NCBI GenBank assembly: GCA_938042195.1
Contig: CALIRQ010000007.1
Coordinates: 71,871 to 135,870, forward strand
Direction of reading: 5' to 3'
Source of the DNA: an uncultured archaeon
Lineage (GTDB): Archaea > Thermoproteota > Bathyarchaeia > 40CM-2-53-6 > CALIRQ01
DNA: 64,000 bases
Made by a program: the position numbers and the translations under genes. Within the stretch, counting starts at the first letter, position 1; each line of letters opens with the position of its first letter. The notes below the pieces were generated by a model. That model saw only the letters and a list, made by a program, of their open reading frames with translations, ran no database searches and was not told where the DNA came from. Shown in pieces: positions 2,203 through 59,963 of the stretch.

Positions 2203-3021
2203 TCATGGGAAATAGGAGAGAAGCACCATCCTCGCGCCTAATACCGCGAGAAATAGGCCGAAGGCTCTTCTCAACCACTTCGCCTTAAGCCGTCTTGCGA
2301 CCCTAGCGCCGATCTGCGTCCCCCCAATTATGCCTATTGCTAGGAGAAGGGAATATTCCAATAGGACATTTCCCAAGAACAGATGGGTCGTGGAGGCGGA
2401 GATGGATGTGAAGATCATCATGAACATGGAGGTGGCGACTGCGAGGTGCATCGGAATGCCGGCAACGAGCACCATCACGGGCACCATCACGGCCCCTCCC
2501 CCTATCCCGAAGAATCCGGAGGCGAACCCCCCGAGGAAGCTCATCGCGAGGGCCGGCGGGATATTCGCCCTATATCGGAACAGCTCCCCCCTCGAATCCA
2601 TCAAGACCCTCTCCCAAACCCACTTCCCCTGGGCCCTCCCCTCCTTCGCCACACCACCTGGATCTATCGCCATCCTAATGGCTATAGCGATCTCGAATAT
2701 CCCAAAGAGCGCTGCCAGCTCCTTGGACTTCACGAAATTGGTCGCATATGCCCCCAAGATTCCCCCCGGAACGGTCCCGAGCGCCATCAGAGCTCCGACC
2801 TTATAGTCTATCCTCCTCTGCATAGCGTAGGCTATTGTTGATGAGATCGCTGTGAATACTATCATCAGGCTGCTGGTCCCAACGGCGTTTTTGGGATCTA
2901 TGCCGTAGAACATCGTCAGCGCTGGCACGACCATAAATCCTCCCCCCACTCCCATCAACGCTGAGATTATGCCTACTAGGAACGCCAAAGCGGTCAATCC
3001 AGCCAAATCGATCGGCGGCAT
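2203..3021 (-). CDS. Sulfite exporter TauE/SafE family membrane protein
   Basis: Duplicated GVGGG/GIGGG..VP and AVGTS/AVATS motifs, about 8 TM segments; start set at ATG 3021. Confidence 0.88.
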   Translation of the reverse strand: MPPIDLAGLTALAFLVGIISALMGVGGGFMVVPALTMFYGIDPKNAVGTSSLMIVFTAISSTIAYAMQRRIDYKVGALMALGTVPGGILGAYATNFVKSKELAALFGIFEIAIAIRMAIDPGGVAKEGRAQGKWVWERVLMDSRGELFRYRANIPPALAMSFLGGFASGFFGIGGGAVMVPVMVLVAGIPMHLAVATSMFMMIFTSISASTTHLFLGNVLLEYSLLLAIGIIGGTQIGARVARRLKAKWLRRAFGLFLAVLGARMVLLSYFP

Positions 3022-3133
3022 CGCGCTCGGCCCCGACCATTGGGATGAGGGAGAGCCGATTATAAAGTTTCGAAAGGTTATTTTTGGAGAATCAGAATTA
3101 AGGCTTAAGGATCCCAGGGAAAAGTGCCCTTCC

Positions 3134-25496: not shown

Positions 25497-27053
25497 ATGA
25501 TAACAAGAGAAGCGATCGTATTGGCCATGGCCATAGGCTACATAGTGTTGCTCTTCATCCTCGGCGGCTTAGGGAAATGGATCAGGCTCAGGGAGAAGAC
25601 GATAACCGAATTCTTCAGGCCCTCTGGCATCGCGCCCGCTTGGATGCTTTGGTTCGCGATGGGCGCGAACATGCACACGGCATTCGCCATACCGGGCTCC
25701 ATGGGCTTCTATTACGCGCATGGTGTAGGCTTCACGATGCACTGGGTCTGGACGCTCACGACCCCGCTGTTCGTCATGTACGTCTTGGGCCCGAGGCTGC
25801 GCGCCGTCGCCCAGAAATACGGCTACGTTACGGTCTCCGAAATGCTCGGCGACTTCTACGAGAGCCCGACGCTGGCCGCATTCATAGCCATATTCCTCTC
25901 GGTCGCCAACATGGCCTACTTCACGGCGAACGTCATAGGGCCGGCGACGATGCTGTCCTTCGGGACCGGGGGCCTCGTGCCATATGAGTGGGCCATACTC
26001 ATAATCCTACTCGTCATAATGGGCTACTGTTTCGCCGGGGGCTTCAAATCCGTCTTCTTCACGGACGTACTTCAAGGCCTTCTGATGCTCGTGGCGACCT
26101 GGGGCGCGGCCTTCTTCATGCTCTCCCTATTCAACTGGAACTCTTACGCGTTATTCAGCAAGGTTTATGAGATCTCGCCGAAGCACTTGAGCATACCGGG
26201 AGCCCTTGGCCTAGTAACTCCGGCTTGGTGGTTCTCCTTCTCCTTCGCCCCGCACGTCTTCCATTGGGCGATACAGCCTAGGAACTTCGCATACTACCAG
26301 CTCGCCAAATCCAACGAGGAGATCAGGAGGAACGCGCTCCTCATGGGTCTCTACCTCTCCATGATATACATGCCAGTGGTCATACTGGGGCTGGGGGTGA
26401 AGGCCCTGATGCCCGAGCCGCCCAAGGTGGGCGCTTGGACCGGGCCCGACGCGGCCTTCCCAACCTTCATGGCGGCCAACGCGCCGATAATCCTGTGGGG
26501 GATCTTGGTGGCGGGCTCCATGGCAGCCGGCCAATCCACGATGGACTCGGACCTCGTGAGCCACTCGGGAATGCTCGTGAGGGACGTATACATGAAGATA
26601 AAGAAGGGCGCGAGCCCTGAGCACTACCTCAAGGTCGGGAGGCTCCTCGTCATACTATTTGGAATAGTGACTGTCTACATATCCACCTATGCAGCCAAGT
26701 TGCCGATCATTACGCTCCTGACGCCATTGTCCACCGGGGTCGTCGGTTGCCTCTTCTTGCCCATATTGGGCGCCGTCCTGCCCATGGGCAAGTTCAAGGT
26801 GACGAAGGCCGGGGTATGGGCAGCGCTGATAGTTGGCATAATAGTCAACCTCCTGACGATGAGCCCGAACTTCGTTGGCTCTCCCAAATGGCTCCAGAAC
26901 CCAGGGGGCTTCCACTTTAACTTGGCTGTTAACGTAGCCGCAATCGTGGCCGGAGTCTTGGTCAGCCTGGTCACGAAGCCCCCCTCCAGGGACAAGCTGG
27001 AGAAGTTCCACCTCTTCCTAGCCCAAGAGTTCGCCAAAGGTAAGGCGGCCTAA
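25497..27053 (+). CDS. Sodium:solute symporter (SSS) family transporter
   Basis: ~13 TM; GGFKSVFFTDVLQG, AAGQSTMDS motifs. Confidence 0.9.
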   Translation: MITREAIVLAMAIGYIVLLFILGGLGKWIRLREKTITEFFRPSGIAPAWMLWFAMGANMHTAFAIPGSMGFYYAHGVGFTMHWVWTLTTPLFVMYVLGPRLRAVAQKYGYVTVSEMLGDFYESPTLAAFIAIFLSVANMAYFTANVIGPATMLSFGTGGLVPYEWAILIILLVIMGYCFAGGFKSVFFTDVLQGLLMLVATWGAAFFMLSLFNWNSYALFSKVYEISPKHLSIPGALGLVTPAWWFSFSFAPHVFHWAIQPRNFAYYQLAKSNEEIRRNALLMGLYLSMIYMPVVILGLGVKALMPEPPKVGAWTGPDAAFPTFMAANAPIILWGILVAGSMAAGQSTMDSDLVSHSGMLVRDVYMKIKKGASPEHYLKVGRLLVILFGIVTVYISTYAAKLPIITLLTPLSTGVVGCLFLPILGAVLPMGKFKVTKAGVWAALIVGIIVNLLTMSPNFVGSPKWLQNPGGFHFNLAVNVAAIVAGVLVSLVTKPPSRDKLEKFHLFLAQEFAKGKAA

Positions 27054-51729: not shown

Positions 51730-53196
51730 TCAGGGCCTCGATATCTCCTTGAGGAGCGACCCTCTACTGTCGAATATCTCGATCTTCAGGGGCAACTGCC
51801 CAGGCGCGGTATGCGTCGCGCATGCGAGGCATGGGTCGTAGGCCCTGAAGGCCATCTCCACCTCATTGAGCAGCCCCTCCTCGACCGAGCCGGCCCTTAT
51901 CAGGCTTCGGGCGGCGTTCCTCACGCTCATGCATATAACCGAGTTGTTATGGGTCGTCGGGACGATAAGATTCAACTCCCTGATCCTGCCCTCCCCATCC
52001 GATGTATAGTCGTGTATCAGGACGCCTCTGGGGGCCTCTACCACGCCAACCCCCCTCCCCCGCGGGCCCGCCGGTATGTTCCTGATGTCGCCGTTAGTTA
52101 TGCTCGGATCCTCCACCAACTCCATAAACCTTTCAGCCGCGTACAGCGTTTCGATCACCCTGGCCCAATGGTATGCAAAGGTTGAATGGCACGGCTTCTC
52201 GAGGACCTCGAACATCTCCTCGAAGGCCCCTTGGGCCCTGGGGGTCGGTATCCTATCGATCACATTGAACCTGGCCAATGGGCCAACCCTATAGATCCCG
52301 CTCCCCTCTCCATCAACGAGGCCCCTCCAGCCCAAGGGCTTCAGGAACGTGAACTTCGAATAGGTCCAGGGCTCGACGTGCTCCGATATATGGTCTAGGT
52401 AGTCCTTCGGTTCGAAGATATCGATGGCCCTTCCATCCGGATCTACCGCCTTGAGCTTCCCTCGGAGCAAGGAGAGGGAATCGCCCTCCCCAACCATGGC
52501 GAGGGAGTTGACCCGGTTGACGTTCTTGTCCTCCAAGATCATTTTGGAGTATTTCTCATCCTTCAATACCGTCTTTTTGAATAAACCCAAGGTGGATTCG
52601 GAGAACTCGAGCAGGTACTTGGCCATCCCCTCGATCCTCGCCCTCTCCTCCTCCGTAATCGGCCTGGAGATGCCACCCGGCAGGCAGAATACGGGATGGG
52701 TCGATCTGCCGCCCACGATCTCTTGTATCTCATGGGCGTATCCAAAGGCCCTCAGGAGCCTCCCCCCAAGCTCTTGGCCAACCTTGTTCAGGAGGCCGAC
52801 GACGTTCCTCTCGGCTGGCGGGGCGCTCGGGCCCGGGACGAAATCGGGGAGCGCCAAGAGATAGAAGTGGAGGAGGTGGTCGTGGACGAAGAACGCGGAA
52901 TAGCCCATCTCCCTGACCTTCTCGGCCGTCTCGGTCGGCTCCACCCCATATACGGCATCGGCCGCCTTCGCCGAGGCCAGATGGTGGGCCCAAGGGCAGA
53001 CCCCGCAAATCCTAGGAGTTATCCTCGGCATCTCCTCAACCAGCCTCCCCTTGCAGAACTCCTCGAAGCCCCTGAGCTCGAGGATTTGGAAGAACGCATC
53101 CCTTACGCCCCCCTCCTCGTCCAGGAATATGCTTATCTTTGCGTGGCCCTCGAGCCTGCTCGCCGGGTATATCTCGATCTCCCTTCCCGGTCCCAT
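51730..53196 (-). CDS. mvhA: Group 3c [NiFe]-hydrogenase large subunit MvhA
   Basis: P.SRLEGHAKI, L1 RICGVCPWAH, EAPRG.L.H, L2 RAYDPCLACATH; start set at ATG 53196. Confidence 0.93.
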   Translation of the reverse strand: MGPGREIEIYPASRLEGHAKISIFLDEEGGVRDAFFQILELRGFEEFCKGRLVEEMPRITPRICGVCPWAHHLASAKAADAVYGVEPTETAEKVREMGYSAFFVHDHLLHFYLLALPDFVPGPSAPPAERNVVGLLNKVGQELGGRLLRAFGYAHEIQEIVGGRSTHPVFCLPGGISRPITEEERARIEGMAKYLLEFSESTLGLFKKTVLKDEKYSKMILEDKNVNRVNSLAMVGEGDSLSLLRGKLKAVDPDGRAIDIFEPKDYLDHISEHVEPWTYSKFTFLKPLGWRGLVDGEGSGIYRVGPLARFNVIDRIPTPRAQGAFEEMFEVLEKPCHSTFAYHWARVIETLYAAERFMELVEDPSITNGDIRNIPAGPRGRGVGVVEAPRGVLIHDYTSDGEGRIRELNLIVPTTHNNSVICMSVRNAARSLIRAGSVEEGLLNEVEMAFRAYDPCLACATHTAPGQLPLKIEIFDSRGSLLKEISRP

Positions 53197-53201
53197 CGCC
53201 C

Positions 53202-54179
53202 TCAAACCTCCCATAGCCTCCTGCGCAGGATCGAGGAGGGCAGGCTGAATAGGTAGAAGAGGCCCACGGGATCCACGATGCCATCCATGAGCCTCGCGAC
53301 ATCCTCCTCGGACATCTTGTCCTCGCCCTCCAGCCCAAGGATCGAAGCTATGGCGCCGAGCATCTTGGCCCCCTGATCCCCGACGCCATCGGGGGGCCCC
53401 ATGCAACCCTCGCACCTCATATTGGCCTTGATGCACTTGGCGTCGCAACCCGCCCTAGTGGCCGGGCCCATGCAAAGGATGCCTTGGTCGAGGAGGCACC
53501 TTTCTTGATCCGCGATCGTTTCATGGGCCCTTACTATCTTGGATATGGATTTCCCCTCCCTCTTCCTCGGGCATTCATCGCAAAGGTTCTTGGCCGGGCC
53601 GATGACCGATCCCCTGGGCGGAAGGTCGCTCGATAATATGGCTTCGAATGCGTCCTTCACTTGGGAGGTCTGCGGGGGGCACCCCGGTATCGAGTAATCG
53701 ACCTCCACCACTCCGCTCAAGGGCAGGACGGCATCGAGCCTCTTCGGCACCGCCATCCTATACTCGCCCACGAGAGCCTCACCCTGCGGCTTTAATCCCT
53801 TTGGATTATCGGTACTTGGCGTTCCGTAAACCGTTTCGAGCAATGAGTCCTTGGTTGCGAGGTTCGCCAAGCCCGGCACCCCGCCGAAGCAGGCGCAGGA
53901 TCCGAAGGCCACCATCAGCTTGGATTTTCGCCTGAGCAACCTCGCCATCTCCGCGTTCTCCTCGTTCACTATCGCCCCGTGGTAGAGGCAAAGGTCTATC
54001 GACCCATTCGCCATGGCCTCCAAATCCTTGAGCTTCAGATCGGCGGCGGTGGGCCAGAACGCTATGTTCACGGAGCTCAGGACCTTTGGGAGGTATTCCG
54101 CCAAATCCACTATGGTGATATCGCATCCCGAGCAGGTGGCCCCCAATCCGATCGCCAAATTCAATCTATTCCGCCCCAA
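53202..54179 (-). CDS. mvhG: F420-non-reducing hydrogenase small subunit MvhG
   Basis: CSGCD, FGSCACFGGVPGLAN, PGCPP, CDECPR, CLL.QG..CMGPAT..GC. Confidence 0.92.
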   Translation of the reverse strand: MGRNRLNLAIGLGATCSGCDITIVDLAEYLPKVLSSVNIAFWPTAADLKLKDLEAMANGSIDLCLYHGAIVNEENAEMARLLRRKSKLMVAFGSCACFGGVPGLANLATKDSLLETVYGTPSTDNPKGLKPQGEALVGEYRMAVPKRLDAVLPLSGVVEVDYSIPGCPPQTSQVKDAFEAILSSDLPPRGSVIGPAKNLCDECPRKREGKSISKIVRAHETIADQERCLLDQGILCMGPATRAGCDAKCIKANMRCEGCMGPPDGVGDQGAKMLGAIASILGLEGEDKMSEEDVARLMDGIVDPVGLFYLFSLPSSILRRRLWEV

Positions 54180-54615
54180 CGCGCTTCACCTTTAGTGGGC
54201 TTGGCCCCAGCCTCCTTAGGCGCTCAGTGAAGTCCTTCACTATCTCGGCGAACCTCTGGCCCTCAGATGCCGATGCCCATTCCAATCTGACCCTATCTGG
54301 ATTGATGCCCAGTTCCCTCAGGAGCTTCCGAAGCAGGTAATAGCGCCTCCTAGCTTTCAGGTTCCCGCTTTGGTAATGGCAATCGGAGGGGGGGTGGCAG
54401 CCGGCTATTAGGACGCCATCGTAGCCCTCCCTGAGGGCCTCCAGCACGAAGCTCGGCTCGACCCTCCCCGAGCACATGACCCTCACGCATCTTATGTTCG
54501 GTGGATACTCCATCCTGCTCATCCCGGCTAGGTCCGCCGCCGCGTAGGAGCACCAATTGCATAGGAATCCCAAGATCCTCGGCTCGAACCAATCCCCCTT
54601 TCGGTTTTCAATCAA
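54166..54615 (-). CDS. mvhD: Hydrogenase iron-sulfur subunit MvhD
   Basis: FEPRILGFLCNWCSY.AAD.AG, RVMCSGR, GCH...CHY, WASASEG. Confidence 0.95.
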   Translation of the reverse strand: MIENRKGDWFEPRILGFLCNWCSYAAADLAGMSRMEYPPNIRCVRVMCSGRVEPSFVLEALREGYDGVLIAGCHPPSDCHYQSGNLKARRRYYLLRKLLRELGINPDRVRLEWASASEGQRFAEIVKDFTERLRRLGPSPLKVKRVGAE

Positions 54616-54625
54616 TTTCGCTCAC

Positions 54626-56623
54626 CTACCCAGCGGCCGAGCTTATCATCGAGAGGATCTGCTCCTCCGTGAACATCCTAGATCTCACCGCGCCGGATGG
54701 GCAGGCGGCCGAGCAGGTGCCGCAGCCCTTGCAGAGGACCTCGTCCACCTTGGCCACCCTCTTATCTTCCCTCTCCTCCAGCTTCAGGGCCCCATATGGG
54801 CAAAGCTTGACGCAAACCCCGCAGCCACCGCATCGATCCTCCTCTATCAGGGGGCTTATGGGCTCCACATACACTTGGCCCATGCTGAGCGGTATCAAGG
54901 CCCTAGCCGCGGCGCCGCTGGCTTGGGCGACGGCATCGGGGATGTCCTTCGGGTACTGGGCCGATCCGGCGAGATAGATGCCGTCGACCACCGCATCGTT
55001 GGGCCTCAGCTTCGGGTGGGCCTCCATGAGGAACCCATCCGCGCTGCGGGGTATGCCCAGGATCTTGCTGATGGCATCCGTATCCGCCCTCGGGACCTGC
55101 CCGACCGAGAGTACGACCAAGTCGAAGGAATCCTCCAGCGCGGTGCCCAATAGGGTATCCTCATACCTGAGCACGAGCTCATGGGTCCTCGGATCCTCGC
55201 GTATGCTTGAGACCTTGCCCCTTATGAACTTCACCCCCGCCTCTTGGCTCCTAAGGTAAAATTCCTCATATCCCTTCCCGAAGGCCCTTATATCCATATA
55301 GAATATGTATACATCGGACTCGGGATTTTGCTCCTTTATTATCAACGAATCCTTTATGGCGTACATGCAACAAACCCTGGAGCAATATAGGTTGAACCTC
55401 GCGTCCCTGGATCCAACGCATTGTATGAAAGCCACCTTCCTCGGCGGTTTGCCGGTCGACGGCCTTAATATGGCGCCGCCGGTCGGGCCCATCGGATCGG
55501 TCATGCGCTCCAACATCGGTCCCGTCACAACGTCTTTGTATCTTCCGAACCCATACTCCTCCAACGGAGTGGGATCGAAGGGATCGTACCCGATGGCCAC
55601 TATGATGCTGCCCACCCTCAGCTCCAAGACTTCCTCCTTTTGATCGAAATCTATCGCTTTGGCCTCGCAGACCCTCTCGCAAACCCTACAGATCCCCCTC
55701 TTGAGATAGAGGCAATTCTCTCCATCTATGGAATAGGCCAATGGAACGGCGTTTGGGGACGTTATGTAAATTGCCTTCCTTGAGCTCATCCCGAAATCGA
55801 CCTCGTTCGGGATCCTGACCGGGCATTTTTGAGCGCAAAGCCCGCAGGCCGTGCATTTCTCCTCATCGACATATCTTGGCCTCTTCCTTATCTTGACCTT
55901 GAAATTCCCCAGGGATCCCGAGGCCTCAATGAGTTCCGAATTGGTCAACAACTTGATCTTTGGATGTTGCGCCGCGCTGACCATCTTCGGAGTCAATATG
56001 CAGGCCGCGCAATCCATCGTCGGGAATACCTTGGACCATTGCCCCATCCTCCCACCAAGGCTCGGGCCCTTCTCCACTAGGTATACTTGATAGCCGTTAT
56101 CCGCTACATCCAGCGCGGCCTGTATGCCCGCGATCCCCCCGCCTATCACCAGCGCGCTCCTCGTCACCTCCACGGCCTTCGTTTCGAGCGGGATCAACCA
56201 CCTCGCCTTGGCAACGGCCATCTTTACTAGGTCGATCGCCTTCTCCGTCGCTCTATCCGGATCGGAGCGATGGACCCAAGAGCATTGCTCCCTTATGTTG
56301 GCCATCTCCAACAGATATGGGTTCAGCCCCGCCTTCCTCAGGGTATCCCTGAAGGTGAGCTCGTGTACCTTCGGGGAGCAAGCCGCAACGACGACCCTAT
56401 TTATGCCCAGCTCCATTATATCTTTTGATATCATTTCTTGGCCCACGTCATCGCACATGTGGAGGTACTCCCTCGCCACTTCAACTCCGGGTAGCTTCGA
56501 GGCGAAATCGGCGACCCTCTTGACATCGACCACATCGGCTATATTCTTGCCGCAATGGCATACATATACGCCTATCTTCAAATTTTTCAAATCCGCTCGA
56601 ACATCATTCATCAAAATCACCAA
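54626..56623 (-). CDS. hdrA: Heterodisulfide reductase subunit A (flavin-based electron bifurcation)
   Basis: GVYVCHCG, NIREQCSWVH, GGGIAG, FPT.DC..CIL, QCVGSRD, YCSRVCCMY, PKDIP, C-terminal ferredoxin motifs; start probably ~56608. Confidence 0.96.
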   Translation of the reverse strand: MVILMNDVRADLKNLKIGVYVCHCGKNIADVVDVKRVADFASKLPGVEVAREYLHMCDDVGQEMISKDIMELGINRVVVAACSPKVHELTFRDTLRKAGLNPYLLEMANIREQCSWVHRSDPDRATEKAIDLVKMAVAKARWLIPLETKAVEVTRSALVIGGGIAGIQAALDVADNGYQVYLVEKGPSLGGRMGQWSKVFPTMDCAACILTPKMVSAAQHPKIKLLTNSELIEASGSLGNFKVKIRKRPRYVDEEKCTACGLCAQKCPVRIPNEVDFGMSSRKAIYITSPNAVPLAYSIDGENCLYLKRGICRVCERVCEAKAIDFDQKEEVLELRVGSIIVAIGYDPFDPTPLEEYGFGRYKDVVTGPMLERMTDPMGPTGGAILRPSTGKPPRKVAFIQCVGSRDARFNLYCSRVCCMYAIKDSLIIKEQNPESDVYIFYMDIRAFGKGYEEFYLRSQEAGVKFIRGKVSSIREDPRTHELVLRYEDTLLGTALEDSFDLVVLSVGQVPRADTDAISKILGIPRSADGFLMEAHPKLRPNDAVVDGIYLAGSAQYPKDIPDAVAQASGAAARALIPLSMGQVYVEPISPLIEEDRCGGCGVCVKLCPYGALKLEEREDKRVAKVDEVLCKGCGTCSAACPSGAVRSRMFTEEQILSMISSAAG

Positions 56624-56627
56624 CCGT

Positions 56628-57518
56628 TCAAGGGAGCTTGCTCAATATTCGATCCATCCCAACGAAATTCATATCCACGCCCAGCTCATGGGGCCCATAT
56701 CCCATGGCCAGGCCAAGGGCTTGGACGTAATGGAGGACCGGCATGTCGTAGGGTTGCAAGCCGTATAGCCTTTGCAACTCGATCTGGCCCCTATCGAATT
56801 GGAGGTGGCAGAAGGGGCAGACGTTTAGGATGAAGTCGGCGCCCGCCTCCTTGGCGCTCAGGAGCTTCCGATTCAACATCCTCAATGAAACGTCCAAGAC
56901 CGCGGAGCGGACGCCGCCGCCGGCCCCGCAACATGCCATCTTGTCCTCCCATTCCACGCTCTCGGCGCCGAGAGCCTCCGTCAGCTCATCCAAGAAGGTC
57001 GGCCTCTCGGCGCTGCCGACCCATTCCCTCAGGACCTTGGGCTTTATCAAATGGCAACCGTAATGGACCGCGGCCCTCAGGCCCAATGGCTTCGTGACGG
57101 CCCTCCTTATCCCCTCGGGCGTTACCTCCTTCATCAGGACCTCGGCCAGATGCCTTACGCCAACCGATCCCTTGAAGACCATCCCCACCTCCTTCAATTT
57201 CGAATTAACGGAATCCCTGAGCGCCCTATCGGCCTTGAGGCTATGGTTGGCATCGGCGAGGGTTCCATAGCAACCGTTGCAGAAGGTCAGCACATCCAAG
57301 GCCATATCCTCGGCGATGCAAAGGTTCCTGGCCGCCACGGCCAACCAAGCCGGGCGGCTGAAGGATTTCACGACCCCAGGGGCCGGACAGCAGGAGGCCC
57401 CGTTCATATCCGCCAGCTCTATGCCGATCCTCGGCAGGACCTTCCTGGCGGCGGCCTCTATTCCGGGGTACCTATTCGGGATCAAGCACCCGAGGAACAG
57501 GGCGTATTTCCTCCCCAA
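56628..57518 (-). CDS. hdrB: Heterodisulfide reductase subunit B
   Basis: FLGC.IP, SCCPAPG, CNGC, HYGCH, CCGAGGG, CPFCHLQFD: both CCG domains intact; start set at TTG 57518. Confidence 0.95.
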   Translation of the reverse strand: MGRKYALFLGCLIPNRYPGIEAAARKVLPRIGIELADMNGASCCPAPGVVKSFSRPAWLAVAARNLCIAEDMALDVLTFCNGCYGTLADANHSLKADRALRDSVNSKLKEVGMVFKGSVGVRHLAEVLMKEVTPEGIRRAVTKPLGLRAAVHYGCHLIKPKVLREWVGSAERPTFLDELTEALGAESVEWEDKMACCGAGGGVRSAVLDVSLRMLNRKLLSAKEAGADFILNVCPFCHLQFDRGQIELQRLYGLQPYDMPVLHYVQALGLAMGYGPHELGVDMNFVGMDRILSKLP

Positions 57519-57532
57519 CTTGAACGCCTCGA

Positions 57533-58255
57533 TTAGGCCGATCCCGCCTTCTGCGGCTGGGCCTTTTCCACCAATTCGAAGAACCCCGTTTCCTTGAGGA
57601 TATGCTGGACGTCGAGGAGGGCCCTCTCGTATTGATGAACGGTCGGCGGCAGCTCGCTGAGGCCCAGCTCCTTGCGCCTCTCCCTCGTCGCCTGATCTAT
57701 GGGCACCGCGTGGCCCGTCTTCATCAGGTTCATCGAAACAACTTTGTGGGGATCCAACATCCACCCATTCTCAACGGCCATGTTCCGCATGGTTAGTATA
57801 GCGTTCACGACGTCTATCTTTCGGGGACACCTCTCGACGCACGTATAGCAAGTTGTACAGAGCCACAGTTCGATGCTCCTCAGGACCTCCTCCTTATACC
57901 CCATGGAGGCCTTCCTGATTATTCTCCTCGAATTGTAGGCAGTGATCCTGCCGGAGGGGCATGAGGCGACGCAGTTCCCGCATTGGATGCACTTATTGAT
58001 GTTCTCCCCGCTCGCCCTTATTATCTCCTCGGCGAACTCGGGGGAAGGAGGTGGGGCCTCCTCCACGTGCTCCAAGGGGATTTCGACCTTTGCCTCCTTG
58101 ACCCCCTTCGCTTCCTCCTCGGATCTCATCCATTCGCGTATCGCCTCCTCTATGGCCAAGCTCATGCTGCCCTTCTTCATGCCGAACCTCTTGGCCACCC
58201 TCTCCCTGAAGGCCCTTTCCAATGCGTCATCCATCATGACATCAATTCGACCCAT
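57533..58255 (-). CDS. hdrC: Heterodisulfide reductase subunit C with an N-terminal ribbon-helix-helix domain
   Basis: CIQCGNCVASCP and WLCTTCYTCVERCPR, TGHAVP; residues ~1-45 MGRIDVMMDDALERAFRERVAKRFGMKKGSMSLAIEEAIREW have an RHH pattern. Confidence 0.92.
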   Translation of the reverse strand: MGRIDVMMDDALERAFRERVAKRFGMKKGSMSLAIEEAIREWMRSEEEAKGVKEAKVEIPLEHVEEAPPPSPEFAEEIIRASGENINKCIQCGNCVASCPSGRITAYNSRRIIRKASMGYKEEVLRSIELWLCTTCYTCVERCPRKIDVVNAILTMRNMAVENGWMLDPHKVVSMNLMKTGHAVPIDQATRERRKELGLSELPPTVHQYERALLDVQHILKETGFFELVEKAQPQKAGSA

Positions 58256-58271
58256 GGGCGATAATTATCTC

Positions 58272-58299
58272 CACATATGCACATATAAACTTTTGTGTA
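58272..58299 (-). promoter_or_regulatory. hdr-mvh operon promoter (BRE/TATA) overlapped by tandem CACATAT repeats
   Basis: Minus strand reads TACACAAAAGTTTATATGTGCATATGTG; TATA lies ~28 nt upstream of the hdrC ATG. Confidence 0.6.
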
Positions 58300-58321
58300 G
58301 CAAAAATTGTAGAAGAGAAGC

Positions 58322-58619
58322 TCATAAATTCAACAATTTCCTTACCGAGGCCTCGCATCGCAGCAGATCCTTCCTCAAGCGCTCAAGATCCGCCTCAGAA
58401 ACCTCCTTCCCCGAGGAAACCTTGCCCACTATTAAACTCCAAAGCCTCCTCTAGGATCCCGATCAAGCTCGGGTCATCCATCCTTAGGGCCTCGAGGCAA
58501 CCCTTGATCGCGTTTATGTCCATTGCGATCTCATATGGGCTCGAATCCCGATATATGGCCTGAGCGAAGCTCCAGCCGAGAAGGAAGGCGCACCTAAGGG
58601 ACTCCATTCCGATCGGCAC
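58322..58619 (-). pseudogene. Small helical hypothetical gene with an apparent single frameshift near 58435
   Basis: ORF 58395..58619 continues in another frame as LIVGKVSSGKEVSEADLERLRKDLLRCEASVRKLLNL* after GAGTTTAATA. Confidence 0.45.
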
Positions 58620-58620
58620 C

Positions 58621-58887
58621 TCATAGATTGAGGATATCGAGCCTTCTGCCCCTCCAATCGGTAATTTCGCAACATACGATCGCGGACTCCGACGCCCCCT
58701 TGAGGCCGCTCACCAATACCTCCTCCCTCTCCCTTATGAGCGCTAGGCCATCGTATACTACGGAAAATTCCCCGGAATCCGCGATCAAGGTGAACAAGGT
58801 CCTGAGGCCGGATGGGGTCCTATAGGTTATGATGGGGCCCTTAACCCCCCCTGAGCCTAATCCCCTCGCTCCCGCGTCCAGGATCAT
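58621..58887 (-). CDS. Hypothetical protein co-transcribed with the phoU-like gene
   Basis: ATGA overlap with the phoU stop; coding-like composition. Confidence 0.55.
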   Translation of the reverse strand: MILDAGARGLGSGGVKGPIITYRTPSGLRTLFTLIADSGEFSVVYDGLALIREREEVLVSGLKGASESAIVCCEITDWRGRRLDILNL

Positions 58888-59963
58888 TCAATCCCATCCG
58901 CGCCCCTGGAATCCGGCCCTCGGACCTCTACCTTGCACAACCCATCCCTCTCCACGGCGTTTTCTATGGCCGCCTCGGCCATCGAAATGGATATCTCCCC
59001 AATCCTGCGCAGGGCCAAGACCACCTCCCTCAATTCCCCGAATCCATGGCAAATGTTCTCAAGCGGCAGGTCATCGATTATATCATACGCCTCCCTCGAG
59101 CATTCCTCGAATAGGTTTATGGCCATATTTGCCATCTTGCTATCGTAATTGAACGCGCTCTTCATGACCATATCGCAAATGCCCTTTATCTTATTGTTAT
59201 ATTCCCATATCCGAGCCTTGAGCCTCTCGCTAACCCATCCCCCCGAAGTCCCCATCCTCACCACGCCCTCGGCCACCTTATTGGCCCAATCCGCCATCCT
59301 CTCCAGGGCATTTGAGATGAGGGCCATCGAGAGGATGCTCCCGGAGTCGTATATACCGATCCTTTGGGATATCGCCGGATTCGCTTGGGCTTGATTCAAA
59401 AGCCTCAGGATCAGGGCATAGATCCTATTGGCCTCCCGCTCCCGCCTCTGGGCCTCCTTGGCCAGCGCGACATCCGAGTCCATCAGGGCCTTGATCGCAT
59501 CGCTCAGCATCGTGGAGAAGAGGGAATATAGGCGATGGATCGCGACGTCCATTGGAAATAGGGCGGGGTTTATGGAGCATTGAAGCACAACGCTCGAGGG
59601 CGTTTCCTCTATGATGCTCAGCCCGATCAATTTGAGCTCGGCCTCGCGGATCGCCTCGAGGCTCCCTCCGTCTATCCTGCTCGACGAACTCACCCTTATG
59701 ACATCGAATCCCTTGACGTAGCCCGCGGTTATCAGCCTCCCGAGGAGGCCCCTATCTCGAAAAAGATCGAGGTTTATGACGAGGGTGCTCGAAACCTCTT
59801 TGGTGGCCGACTCCGCGCTTTGGAATATCCTGAGGGAGCCATCCCTTTCGGTGGAGAGGAGCACGAGGTCCCCCTTCTTCAGCCCAACCCTTTTGACCCA
59901 ACTGGCTGGCAAAGAAACGGTCAGCGTGGAACGCCCAACCAGCTGTATCCTGCGCCTCTCCAT
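58884..59963 (-). CDS. phoU: Archaeal PhoU-family regulator (N-terminal AbrB domain plus PhoU repeats)
   Basis: RRIQLVGRSTLTVSLPASWV..GLKKGD, Y..GFD.I, LERMAD, LRRIGE. Confidence 0.88.
   Translation of the reverse strand: MERRRIQLVGRSTLTVSLPASWVKRVGLKKGDLVLLSTERDGSLRIFQSAESATKEVSSTLVINLDLFRDRGLLGRLITAGYVKGFDVIRVSSSSRIDGGSLEAIREAELKLIGLSIIEETPSSVVLQCSINPALFPMDVAIHRLYSLFSTMLSDAIKALMDSDVALAKEAQRREREANRIYALILRLLNQAQANPAISQRIGIYDSGSILSMALISNALERMADWANKVAEGVVRMGTSGGWVSERLKARIWEYNNKIKGICDMVMKSAFNYDSKMANMAINLFEECSREAYDIIDDLPLENICHGFGELREVVLALRRIGEISISMAEAAIENAVERDGLCKVEVRGPDSRGADGIE

What the first reader, a model, noticed from the sequence alone, without database searches (positions are those of the whole stretch)
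57533..58255. HdrC fused to a ribbon-helix-helix DNA-binding domain: candidate self-regulating, redox-sensing Hdr-Mvh system
Seen: the first gene of the hdrCBA-mvhDGA operon is one uninterrupted 240-aa ORF. Residues ~1-45 show the RHH pattern (alternating strand GRIDVMM, helix DDALERAFRERVAKRF, G turn, helix SMSLAIEEAIREW), followed by a Glu/Pro-rich linker and a complete 2x[4Fe-4S] HdrC. The TATA box lies ~28 nt upstream of this ATG, so the RHH start looks like the real (leaderless) start. Known: canonical HdrC has no DNA-binding domain; RHH proteins (CopG/Arc/MetJ) are dimeric autorepressors; PutA is a precedent for an RHH-fused redox enzyme repressing its own operon. Inference: free or redox-switched HdrC represses the operon, coupling complex assembly or Fe-S/redox state to transcription. 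I know of no description of this.
Basis: partly seen in the sequence, partly recalled or inferred. Interest (0 to 1): 0.88.

Follow-up and report, generated by a model that had tools for sequence, protein, structure and literature searches.

The report
HdrC fused to a DNA-binding domain
In one narrow lineage of uncultured Bathyarchaeia, the iron-sulfur subunit HdrC of a central energy-metabolism enzyme carries a small ribbon-helix-helix DNA-binding domain at its front end, so the enzyme subunit may also switch its own operon off.

Summary
Window 57533-58255 (-) is one uninterrupted 240-aa ORF. [quoted passage not shown] It is the first gene of hdrCBA-mvhDGA and the only HdrC over the family cut-off in this genome.

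The fusion is not an artefact. The same in-frame architecture, with the same neighbours, occurs in four distinct full-length coding sequences and one contig-end fragment from independent assemblies. It is confined to one genus-level Bathyarchaeia clade; every other HdrC examined lacks the domain.

The RHH part belongs to a family of ~50-aa archaeal RHH proteins. It is under purifying selection as strong as HdrC's and is predicted to form the intertwined RHH dimer.

A 26-nt promoter block is invariant in all loci at 25 of 26 positions. It covers BRE, TATA and a tandem ATATGTG-N-ATATGTG that is unique in the genome. This repeat is a candidate operator.

Autorepression is the most likely function, but it is inferred. 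Nothing here supports redox or Fe-S sensing. No description was found in the literature searches run. Verdict: real, a new variant of the "enzyme plus DNA-binding domain" kind, of moderate interest.

The parts
57533..58255 (-). RHH-HdrC fusion gene, 240 codons plus TAA
   Evidence: The same 240-codon frame is found in G002, L109 (identical to L111) and L110.
58121..58255 (-). RHH domain, residues 1-45: strand 2-8, helix 10-24, G25...G29-S-x-S turn, helix 30-45 and beyond
   Evidence: Pfam RHH_6 is sub-threshold. The family profile hits PDB 2k6l at E 4.5e-6. AlphaFold2 helices 10-24 and 30-49 have pLDDT 83-90. The predicted homodimer has an antiparallel ribbon. dN/dS is 0.05-0.17.
58043..58120 (-). 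Acidic, proline-containing linker, residues 46-71
   Evidence: Mean pLDDT is 51 for residues 51-60 and 68 for residues 61-70, and below 50 at 54-63. dN/dS is 0.09-0.53, there are no indels and the frame is kept in all four sequences.
57536..58042 (-). HdrC proper, residues 72-240. The two CX2CX2CX3CP motifs lie at 57956-57991 and 57824-57859.
   Evidence: TIGR03290 scores over its cut-off. The region aligns with solved HdrC chains 8rvv_C, 8rvu_c, 5odc_C and 7bkb_C. It is the only match over the cut-off in the genome.
58283..58297 (-). Candidate archaeal core promoter: purine-rich BRE-like CACAAAAG followed by TATA box TTTATAT
   Evidence: The sequence is shown. It is invariant in all 6 aligned loci, which give 5 distinct sequences. 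Its promoter function is inferred from position.
58272..58286 (-). Candidate operator: tandem ATATGTG-c-ATATGTG. The first copy overlaps TATA. The second lies about -19 to -13 from the inferred transcription start.
   Evidence: It is invariant except for the spacer base (C or T) in all loci. The exact pattern occurs once in the 1,274,696-bp genome. Binding has not been tested.
56628..57503 (-). hdrB
   Evidence: TIGR03288, 411 bits against a cut-off of 345.
54626..56623 (-). hdrA
   Evidence: NF040770/NF041778 HdrA models match at E 1e-274 and 3.5e-194, below their curated cut-offs.
51730..54615 (-). mvhD (54166-54615), mvhG (53202-54179) and mvhA (51730 to about 53196)
   Evidence: VhuD, VhuG and VhuA models match at E 4e-39, 1e-63 and 5e-104, below their curated cut-offs.

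Best explanation
This is a lineage-specific gene fusion. A small RHH regulator gene of the RHH_6 type, probably with its own leaderless promoter, came to lie in front of hdrC and lost its stop codon. The only HdrC of this organism is therefore made as RHH + flexible linker + HdrC.

The HdrC part serves in the HdrABC-MvhAGD complex. Two RHH domains pair into the usual intertwined dimer. That dimer most likely binds the invariant tandem ATATGTG repeats that overlap and follow the TATA box, and so represses hdrCBA-mvhDGA (negative autoregulation).

- **Shown:** the fusion, its recurrence, its restriction to one clade, the RHH family membership by profile, purifying selection, and the conserved repeat.
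- **Inferred:** dimerisation (model only), DNA binding, the operator, the sign of regulation, the leaderless start, and the evolutionary route.

Whether complex assembly or cluster/redox state modulates binding is left open.
For: **The fusion is real and recurrent**
- Full-length in-frame copies occur in G000 and G002. G001 has a copy cut by a contig end after residue 61.
- Metagenome loci L109 (identical to L111) and L110 also carry it.
- Three 90%-identity clusters (P0002, P0003, P0004) stand for 8, 3 and 2 member sequences on 7, 1 and 17 contigs.
- Synteny with hdrB, hdrA and the three upstream genes is kept.

**The fused gene must serve as HdrC**
- It is the only TIGR03290 match over the cut-off in the genome, which is 93.6% complete.

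**The N-terminus is an RHH domain**
- The profile of 14 relatives hits PDB 2k6l at E 4.5e-6 and chain 2kel (protein 56B) at E 0.015.
- 12 of 14 relatives match Pfam RHH_6.
- Standalone ~53-aa homologues with 38-53% identity occur in related genomes.

**Selection**
- Over 6 pairs of 4 coding sequences, dN/dS is 0.054-0.173 for RHH, 0.037-0.083 for HdrC and 0.086-0.526 for the linker.

**Dimer model**
- ipSAE is 0.52 (three runs: 0.52, 0.52, 0.54). The best of 3 controls is 0.00.
- In calibration the mark was reached by 20 of 30 proteins solved as pairs of one chain and by 1 of 23 solved as single chains.
- The runs agree in 100% of contacts and the partner's pLDDT is at least 78.
- Contacts 3-7 and 4-6 indicate an antiparallel ribbon. 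Contacts 38-38 and 42-42 join the second helices.

**Promoter**
- 25 of 26 positions at 58297-58272 are invariant in 5 distinct sequences.
- In the flanking parts of the intergenic region, 9 of 24 and 9 of 16 positions are invariant.
- The tandem repeat occurs once in the genome.
- Standalone relatives also carry repeats or palindromes between TATA and the start. L018, for example, has GTAGATATCTAC and the same CGCCCATGGG at the start.

**Precedent for fusion in this family**
- The same RHH family is fused to the gene downstream of it in another case: P0211 is an RHH-DNA methylase fusion of 523 aa, and L018 and L028 have the two as separate adjacent genes.
Against: - No DNA-binding or expression data exist.
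- The window's own RHH scores below Pfam's gathering score (21.8-23.9 bits against 27).
- The operator rests on five closely related sequences with about 86% identity.
- The first repeat overlaps the TATA box, so part of the conservation is explained by promoter function alone.
- The single heptamer is not enriched in the genome: 79 found against about 91 expected.
- RHH dimers are well represented among solved structures, so the dimer pass may reflect memory of the fold (caveat stated).
- I could not check whether the N-terminus of HdrC is free in the solved complex, or whether two RHH domains of one complex could reach each other.
- An internal start at TTG61 or codon 64 could give an RHH-less HdrC as well.
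Confidence: 0.5

Rival explanations
1. Redox- or Fe-S-sensing switch. The cluster or redox state of the HdrC domain, or its capture by HdrB/HdrA, changes the ability of the RHH dimer to bind the operator. Transcription would then follow the redox or assembly state, as with PutA.
For: The evidence is architectural only. A DNA-binding domain is tethered by a 26-residue flexible linker to a two-cluster ferredoxin-like subunit. This is the sole HdrC, so every Hdr complex would carry two such domains. An RHH needs a partner strand to fold (the monomer model leaves residues 1-9 unstructured), so anything that separates or joins two HdrC chains could gate binding.
Against: No result speaks for sensing. 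The linker evolves fast (dN/dS up to 0.53) and shows no conserved motif. The standalone relatives need no sensor domain. A plain regulator-target fusion explains the data equally well, as with the methylase fusion P0211.
Confidence: 0.15
2. Protein-protein module. The RHH domain has lost, or does not use, DNA binding. It serves as a dimerisation handle that links two HdrC subunits or two complexes.
For: The predicted dimer is strong and symmetrical. Purifying selection alone does not tell DNA binding from dimerisation.
Against: The residues typical of DNA contact in this family are kept in all four fusion proteins: R3 on the ribbon, K27-K28, and the G29-S30-x-S32 turn (their role is recalled from the RHH literature). 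A conserved repeat sits at the right place in its own promoter. Solved Hdr complexes assemble without such a handle (the PDB chains have 183-191 residues).
Confidence: 0.15
3. Two products from one gene. The full-length RHH-HdrC acts mainly as a regulator, and an RHH-less HdrC from an internal start (TTG61 or codon 64) is the enzyme subunit.
For: Codon 61 is TTG in all four sequences. Codon 64 is GTG, TTG or ATG in three of four. A GGAG lies just upstream. A start there would give an HdrC of normal length.
Against: Codon 64 is GCA in G002. The GGAG is only 3 nt from codon 64, and there is no SD-like sequence before TTG61. By eye, the RHH and linker coding part holds no TATA-like stretch. L61 may be conserved simply as a residue.
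Confidence: 0.12
4. Artefact or one-off read-through: an assembly error or a recent stop-codon loss with no function.
For: None was found. The neighbouring small gene in the window does carry a 1-nt insertion relative to three relatives, so the assembly or lineage is not free of indels.
Against: Four distinct full-length coding sequences and one contig-end fragment, from independent assemblies, keep the frame over 240 codons. Synonymous divergence reaches dS of about 1 and RHH dN/dS is 0.05-0.17.
Confidence: 0.02

Closest known systems
PutA, the trifunctional proline utilisation flavoenzyme of E. coli and Salmonella (recalled, not read here)
   Same: An N-terminal RHH domain is fused to a redox enzyme. 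The protein represses its own operon.
   Different: The catalytic parts are unrelated (PRODH/P5CDH against a 2x[4Fe-4S] HdrC). PutA is a single-chain enzyme whose switch is membrane association of the reduced flavoenzyme. Here the RHH sits on one subunit of a six-subunit complex, in an archaeon with a TATA/BRE promoter, and nothing is known about a switch.
Small RHH_6-type archaeal RHH proteins (Pfam PF16762; solved relatives 2k6l and protein 56B/2kel)
   Same: The sequence family and length are the same, with 38-53% identity to standalone ~53-aa proteins of related Bathyarchaeia. The predicted dimer is the same.
   Different: Those proteins stand alone, or precede a PIN toxin gene or a DNA methylase gene. 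This copy is covalently joined to HdrC.
Canonical HdrC of HdrABC-MvhAGD (PDB 5odc, 8rvv, 8rvu, 7bkb)
   Same: The full HdrC model is matched, both cluster motifs are present, and the gene sits in an operon with hdrB, hdrA and mvhDGA.
   Different: It has about 55 extra N-terminal residues. No McrA was found in the genome, so the physiological disulfide substrate is unknown.
Archaeal enzyme/regulator fusions ("trigger enzymes"), e.g. RbkR riboflavin kinase/regulator (PMC5397151; search listing and start of abstract only)
   Same: An archaeal metabolic enzyme carries a DNA-binding domain and, in RbkR, controls genes of its own pathway.
   Different: The DNA-binding fold and the enzyme are different. 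RbkR is widespread in major lineages, whereas this fusion is confined to one genus-level clade.
RHH-DNA methylase fusion P0211 from the same RHH family
   Same: An RHH domain 57% identical to the window's is fused to the product of the gene that lies downstream of it in relatives.
   Different: The partner enzyme is a DNA methyltransferase, where a controller-protein role would be conventional.

Membership tests
Ribbon-helix-helix superfamily (Pfam RHH_6, PF16762) | Sequence match to the family model | tested here: inconclusive
   The window's domain scores 21.8-23.9 bits, E 3e-4 to 6e-5, below the gathering score of 27. However, 12 of 14 aligned relatives match at E <= 0.1 (best 1.9e-7), and the NCBI fragment P0005 of the same fusion carries PF16762 precomputed.
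Ribbon-helix-helix superfamily | Homology to a solved RHH protein | tested here: met
   The profile of 14 sequences hits 2k6l at E 4.5e-6 over 43 of 51 residues, and 2kel (protein 56B) at E 0.015. Pfam names 56B-like proteins an RHH family. That 2k6l is an RHH repressor is recalled.
Ribbon-helix-helix superfamily | Strand-helix-turn-helix order, with a G-x-S/T/N turn before helix 2 | tested here: met
   The model has helices 10-24 and 30-49 with pLDDT 83-90. Residues 1-9 are unstructured in the monomer. G25 and G29 are invariant, and G29-S30-M31-S32 precedes helix 2.
Ribbon-helix-helix superfamily | Obligate intertwined dimer with a two-stranded antiparallel ribbon | tested here: met
   This is a model only. 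ipSAE is 0.52 against a best control of 0.00. In calibration, 20 of 30 solved homo-pairs and 1 of 23 single chains reached the mark. Contacts agree 100% between runs and pLDDT is at least 78. Contacts 3-7, 4-6, 38-38 and 42-42 are predicted. The pass may come from memory of solved RHH dimers.
Ribbon-helix-helix superfamily | Sequence-specific DNA binding through the ribbon | not testable with these tools
   There is only a candidate operator, at 58272-58286.
HdrC (TIGR03290, CoB-CoM heterodisulfide reductase subunit C) | Full-length match over the curated cut-off | tested here: met
   193.2 bits against a cut-off of 160, model positions 1-144 of 144.
HdrC | Two CX2CX2CX3CP [4Fe-4S] motifs | tested here: met
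   C89/92/95/99-P100 and C133/136/139/143-P144, read from the translation.
HdrC | Encoded with hdrB and hdrA (and mvhDGA) | tested here: met
   the same order is found in relatives.
HdrC | Reduces CoM-S-S-CoB in a methanogenic context | tested here: not met
   No McrA (TIGR03256) match was found in the 93.6%-complete genome. Enzyme activity itself is not testable here. The protein is a member of the family by sequence, but its substrate is open.
PutA-type RHH-enzyme autorepressor | Homology of the catalytic part | tested here: not met
   The catalytic part is HdrC/ferredoxin-like, so PutA is an analogy only.
PutA-type RHH-enzyme autorepressor | Represses its own promoter | not testable with these tools
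   This is inferred from the conserved repeat at TATA.
Type II antitoxin (VapB-like RHH) | Adjacent cognate toxin gene | tested here: not met
   The domain is followed in frame by HdrC. The paralogue elsewhere in the genus (L021, L022) does precede a gene; in L022 that gene is a PIN-domain gene (PF01850, E 5.8e-11).

The most novel reading that the evidence does not exclude
RHH-HdrC is a trigger subunit. HdrC that is not built into HdrABC-MvhAGD, or that lacks intact or reduced clusters, pairs through its RHH domains and shuts the hdr-mvh promoter. HdrC held apart in the assembled complex cannot form the RHH dimer. Transcription of an electron-bifurcating complex would then be set directly by its own assembly or cluster state. 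This would be the first such link for Hdr/Mvh and a rare archaeal case of an Fe-S enzyme subunit acting as a transcription factor.
Probability: 0.18. Interest if true: 0.8.

Novelty: new variant of a known kind. Interest (0 to 1): 0.55.

Why it matters
To my recollection, little is known about how Hdr-Mvh type electron-bifurcating complexes are regulated, least of all in uncultured non-methanogenic archaea. Here the regulator candidate, its probable operator and its target lie within 800 bp and on one polypeptide, so the question becomes testable with recombinant protein and a 70-bp DNA fragment. The locus also shows a regulator-enzyme fusion that appears evolutionarily young: it is present in one genus-level clade, and unfused relatives of both halves occur in neighbouring lineages. 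The limits are that it is confined to a few closely related uncultured organisms and that the function is inferred.

Tried and rejected
- **RNA evidence.** The look-up of sequencing runs (kind rna) on 56600-58700 listed no RNA holder.
- **Other RHH-HdrC fusions.** Apparent long N-terminal matches in the genome scan were checked, which examined 17 loci including the three fusion loci. L037, L046, L049, L100, L089, L071, L077, L078 and some others have no RHH. Their matches come from other frames, upstream genes or unrelated N-terminal tails.
- **Long HdrC representatives.** P0008, P0009, P0012, P0013, P0038, P0107, P0110 and P0131 carry acidic low-complexity or hydrophobic N-terminal extensions, not RHH.
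- **Regulon search.** The tandem repeat occurs once in the genome. The near variant with a 2-nt spacer on contig C14 lies inside a 450-aa ORF and was set aside as chance. A 2-mismatch match at window 26676-26690 was not followed.
- **The repeat finder.** On 58240-58340 it did not list the 7-nt direct repeat. It gave an imperfect palindrome centred on CATATG (73% complementary). Its outer arm is not conserved in L110, so I prefer the direct-repeat reading.
- **Operator in unfused relatives.** None of 24 upstream regions of unfused hdrC contains ATATGTG or its complement.
- **Internal promoter.** By eye, there is no TATA-like stretch in the RHH and linker coding part.
- **Single-sequence PDB search.** The 55-aa domain alone gave only weak hits, with 2k6l at E 0.34. 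The profile search was needed.
- **Standalone-length search.** The word-based search for relatives of standalone length found only one protein, P0005, a fragment of the same fusion. Standalone relatives came from the genome search and the "longer" search.

Full report
**1. What is in the sequence**

Window 57533-58255 (-) is a single 240-codon ORF that starts at ATG. NCBIfam TIGR03290 (HdrC) matches residues 86-229 over all 144 model positions, at 193 bits against a cut-off of 160. Pfam places 4Fe-4S dicluster domains at 86-147. The two CX2CX2CX3CP motifs are C89-P100 and C133-P144.

Against solved structures, the HdrC part (query 72-229) aligns with residues 17-174 of the 183-residue chain 8rvv_C. 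It also aligns with 8rvu_c, 5odc_C, 9sfi_E and 7bkb_C, all of 183-191 residues. About 55 residues at the N-terminus therefore have no counterpart in canonical HdrC.

The genes that follow on the same strand are hdrB (TIGR03288, over its cut-off), hdrA, mvhD, mvhG and mvhA. In the genome (93.6% complete) this is the only HdrC over the family cut-off. No McrA was found. The organism is therefore probably not a methanogen, and the fused protein has to be its working HdrC.

**2. Is the N-terminus an RHH domain?**

On its own, the window's domain reaches only 21.8-23.9 bits on Pfam RHH_6, below the gathering score of 27. A single-sequence PDB search is weak.

Whole-genome searches in 40 relatives turned up standalone ORFs of about 53 aa with 38-53% identity to residues 1-50. 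A profile of 14 such sequences, four of them fusions, hits the 51-residue PDB chain 2k6l at E 4.5e-6 over profile positions 3-45. It also hits protein 56B (2kel) at E 0.015. Twelve of the 14 match RHH_6 at E <= 0.1, best 1.9e-7. Pfam names the 56B family an RHH family. That 2k6l is an RHH repressor is my recollection.

The AlphaFold2 model of the full protein has mean pLDDT 82.7 and pTM 0.66:
- Helices at 10-24 and 30-49 have pLDDT 83-90.
- Residues 1-9 are unstructured.
- The stretch 51-70 is low-confidence, with pLDDT below 50 at 54-63.
- The HdrC fold from residue 72 is confident.

A monomeric RHH is expected to leave its strand unpaired. The homodimer test of residues 1-50 passed:
- ipSAE was 0.52 in the median of three runs, against 0.00 for the best of three controls.
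- In calibration the mark was reached by 20 of 30 solved homo-pairs and 1 of 23 single chains.
- The runs agree in 100% of contacts, and pLDDT is at least 78.
- The contacts are those of an RHH dimer: 3-7 and 4-6 across an antiparallel ribbon, and 38-38 and 42-42 between the second helices.

Because RHH dimers are solved, this shows likeness and is not proof.

**3. Is the fusion real, and how far does it reach?**

In the 41 genomes, a match to residues 1-240 without stops occurs in G000 and in G002 (same genus, 90% identity). G001 (same genus) has residues 1-61 at a contig end. G003 (same genus, 95% complete) gave no HdrC or RHH match with these queries. In ten genomes of other families of the order, the best HdrC match starts at query residue 40-85, and the ORFs I read are 185-200 aa without RHH.

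The database results are as follows:
- **Word-indexed protein database, scored on residues 1-62:** three clusters of 240, 243 and 240 aa. One is named by NCBI as HdrC of a Candidatus Bathyarchaeia archaeon. They stand for 8, 3 and 2 member sequences on 7, 1 and 17 contigs.
- **Metagenome scan:** 80 loci were kept of 382 relatives. Three of them (L109, L110, L111) start at residue 1, and L109 and L111 have identical coding sequences.
- **Genome-collection scan:** 80 loci were kept of 231 relatives, and none has the RHH. The apparent long matches were checked and rejected.
- **Exhaustive HMMER search of 1.84 billion representatives:** 3284 hits at E <= 0.001. Of the 150 listed, only P0002 covers 1-240. 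Longer HdrC entries have unrelated acidic or hydrophobic N-terminal tails.

All fusion loci share hdrB and hdrA downstream. Upstream they share the same three genes, with neighbour-protein identities of 65-95%.

The fusion is therefore real and fixed in several species-level lineages. As far as these searches reach, it is restricted to one genus-level clade.

**4. Selection and frame**

I compared four distinct coding sequences in six pairs.

| Segment | dN/dS range |
|---|---|
| RHH, residues 1-45 | 0.054-0.173 |
| Linker, residues 46-71 | 0.086-0.526 |
| HdrC, residues 72-240 | 0.037-0.083 |

Synonymous divergence reaches about 1. There is no indel anywhere in the 240 codons. The RHH part is thus translated and constrained about as strongly as HdrC. 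The linker is freer but stays in frame.

One caveat remains. Codon 61 is TTG in all four sequences, and codon 64 is GTG, GCA, TTG or ATG. An additional internal start cannot be excluded. However, the nearby GGAG is only 3 nt from codon 64, and G002 has no start codon there.

**5. Promoter and candidate operator**

In relatives the upstream gene ends at window 58322-58324, which leaves a 66-nt intergenic region. Six loci (five distinct sequences) were aligned. Positions 58297-58272 read CACAAAAGTTTATATGTG[C/T]ATATGTG and are invariant at 25 of 26 positions. In the 24 intergenic positions before this block only 9 are invariant, and there is a 4-nt indel. In the 16 positions after it, 9 are invariant.

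The block holds three elements:
- a purine-rich BRE-like stretch;
- the TATA box TTTATAT (58289-58283);
- a tandem ATATGTG-N-ATATGTG (58286-58272).

With the usual archaeal spacing (recalled: TATA centred near -26/-27), transcription would start about 4 nt before the ATG. That would make it a leaderless mRNA whose first AUG is the RHH start. The second repeat would then lie at about -19 to -13, where archaeal repressors commonly act.

The exact tandem occurs once in the 1.27-Mb genome. The single heptamer is not enriched: 79 copies found against about 91 expected. None of 24 unfused hdrC upstream regions has the heptamer.

Promoters of standalone relatives show a similar layout by eye:
- L018 has a TATA-like box, then the perfect palindrome GTAGATATCTAC, then the same CGCCCATGGG at the start.
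- L027 has tandem TTGTGTAC repeats.

This fits an RHH gene that arrived with its own autoregulated leaderless promoter and then fused to hdrC. The evidence is suggestive only. The sequences are few and close, and the first repeat overlaps TATA.

**6. Family context**

Neighbours of the standalone relatives were checked.

| Locus | What follows the RHH gene |
|---|---|
| L021, L022 (paralogue in the same genus) | an adjacent gene; in L022, the one scanned, it is a PIN-domain gene (VapBC-like pair) |
| L018, L028 | DNA methylase genes |
| Other loci | nothing recognisable adjacent (orphans) |

Among 113 longer proteins (89-2000 aa) that carry this RHH, four are the HdrC fusion and one is an RHH-DNA methylase fusion (P0211, 523 aa). 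The rest are 89-154 aa. Fusion of this regulator type to the gene behind it has thus happened at least twice. HdrC is the only energy-metabolism partner seen.

**7. Mechanism**

*Most likely (about 0.5).* The RHH domains of two fusion proteins form a dimer that binds the tandem repeat and represses hdrCBA-mvhDGA.
- **Shown:** the architecture, its recurrence, selection and the conserved repeat.
- **Inferred:** dimerisation, binding, the sign of regulation and the transcription start.

*Rivals.*
- A pure dimerisation handle (0.15).
- Two products from an internal start (0.12). This does not exclude the main model.
- An artefact (0.02, refuted).

**8. Literature**

Three full-text searches found no paper describing an RHH or other DNA-binding domain on HdrC:
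- 'ribbon-helix-helix' + 'heterodisulfide reductase';
- 'HdrC'/'Bathyarchaeota'/'MvhADG';
- 'HdrC' + 'DNA-binding domain' + 'fusion'.

I saw search listings and the starts of abstracts only, and I read no paper. Subscription journals are not covered, and supplements were closed. PutA is cited from recall. RbkR (PMC5397151) is cited from its listing.

**9. Verdict**

This is a genuine, lineage-restricted RHH-HdrC fusion with a plausible self-operator. It is a new variant of the known "enzyme with DNA-binding domain" theme. It is easy to test in vitro but narrow in distribution, and its function is unproven. Interest is 0.55.

Noticed in passing
window 58395-58480, insertion near 58433: The small gene upstream of the hdr promoter has a 1-nt insertion relative to G002, G001 and L109. 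The insertion shifts the frame and gives a stop at 58395-58397. In the relatives the ORF runs on about 24 codons to the TGA at 58322-58324. It is either an assembly error or a real truncation.
   Followed up: partly
L003 and L038 (identical upstream sequence), L167; also L006 and L007: Unfused hdrC genes of other Bathyarchaeia families are preceded by a tandem pair of palindromes, TTTACATATGTAAAG twice. In L006 and L007 there is one TTACATGTGTAA/TTACACGTGTAA palindrome. These look like operators for an unknown trans-acting regulator.
   Followed up: no
P0211 (523 aa); L018:1501-2282; L028:1098-2131: The same RHH family sits directly upstream of N6/N4 DNA methylase genes. In one cluster it is fused to the methylase, like a controller protein joined to its target.
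   Followed up: partly
G000:C1:19344-19490 (L021) and G002:C2:174943-175086 (L022), outside the window: The only other member of this RHH family in the genome is a ~98-113-aa protein followed by another gene. In L022, the one scanned, that gene is a PIN-domain gene (a VapBC-like pair).
   Followed up: partly
window 58884-59963 (-): An AbrB/MazE-type DNA-binding domain fused to a PhoU domain lies two small genes upstream of the hdr operon on the same strand. This synteny is conserved in all fusion loci.
   Followed up: partly
window 58304-58314 and 58329-58339: An 11-nt inverted repeat, 91% complementary with a 14-nt spacer, spans the end of the upstream gene, just before the BRE/TATA block. 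It could be a terminator hairpin or a second site.
   Followed up: no
window 26676-26690 (-): This is the only other match in the window to the tandem repeat pattern, with 2 mismatches (ATAGGTGGATATGTA).
   Followed up: no
whole genome G000: No McrA (TIGR03256) match was found in the 93.6%-complete genome, although a full hdrCBA-mvhDGA operon is present. This is Hdr-Mvh in a probable non-methanogen.
   Followed up: partly
L046 and L049 (Thermoplasmata), about 2236-3060: A 275-aa ORF with what looks by eye like an N-terminal helix-turn-helix lies immediately upstream of hdrC in two Thermoplasmata MAGs.
   Followed up: no
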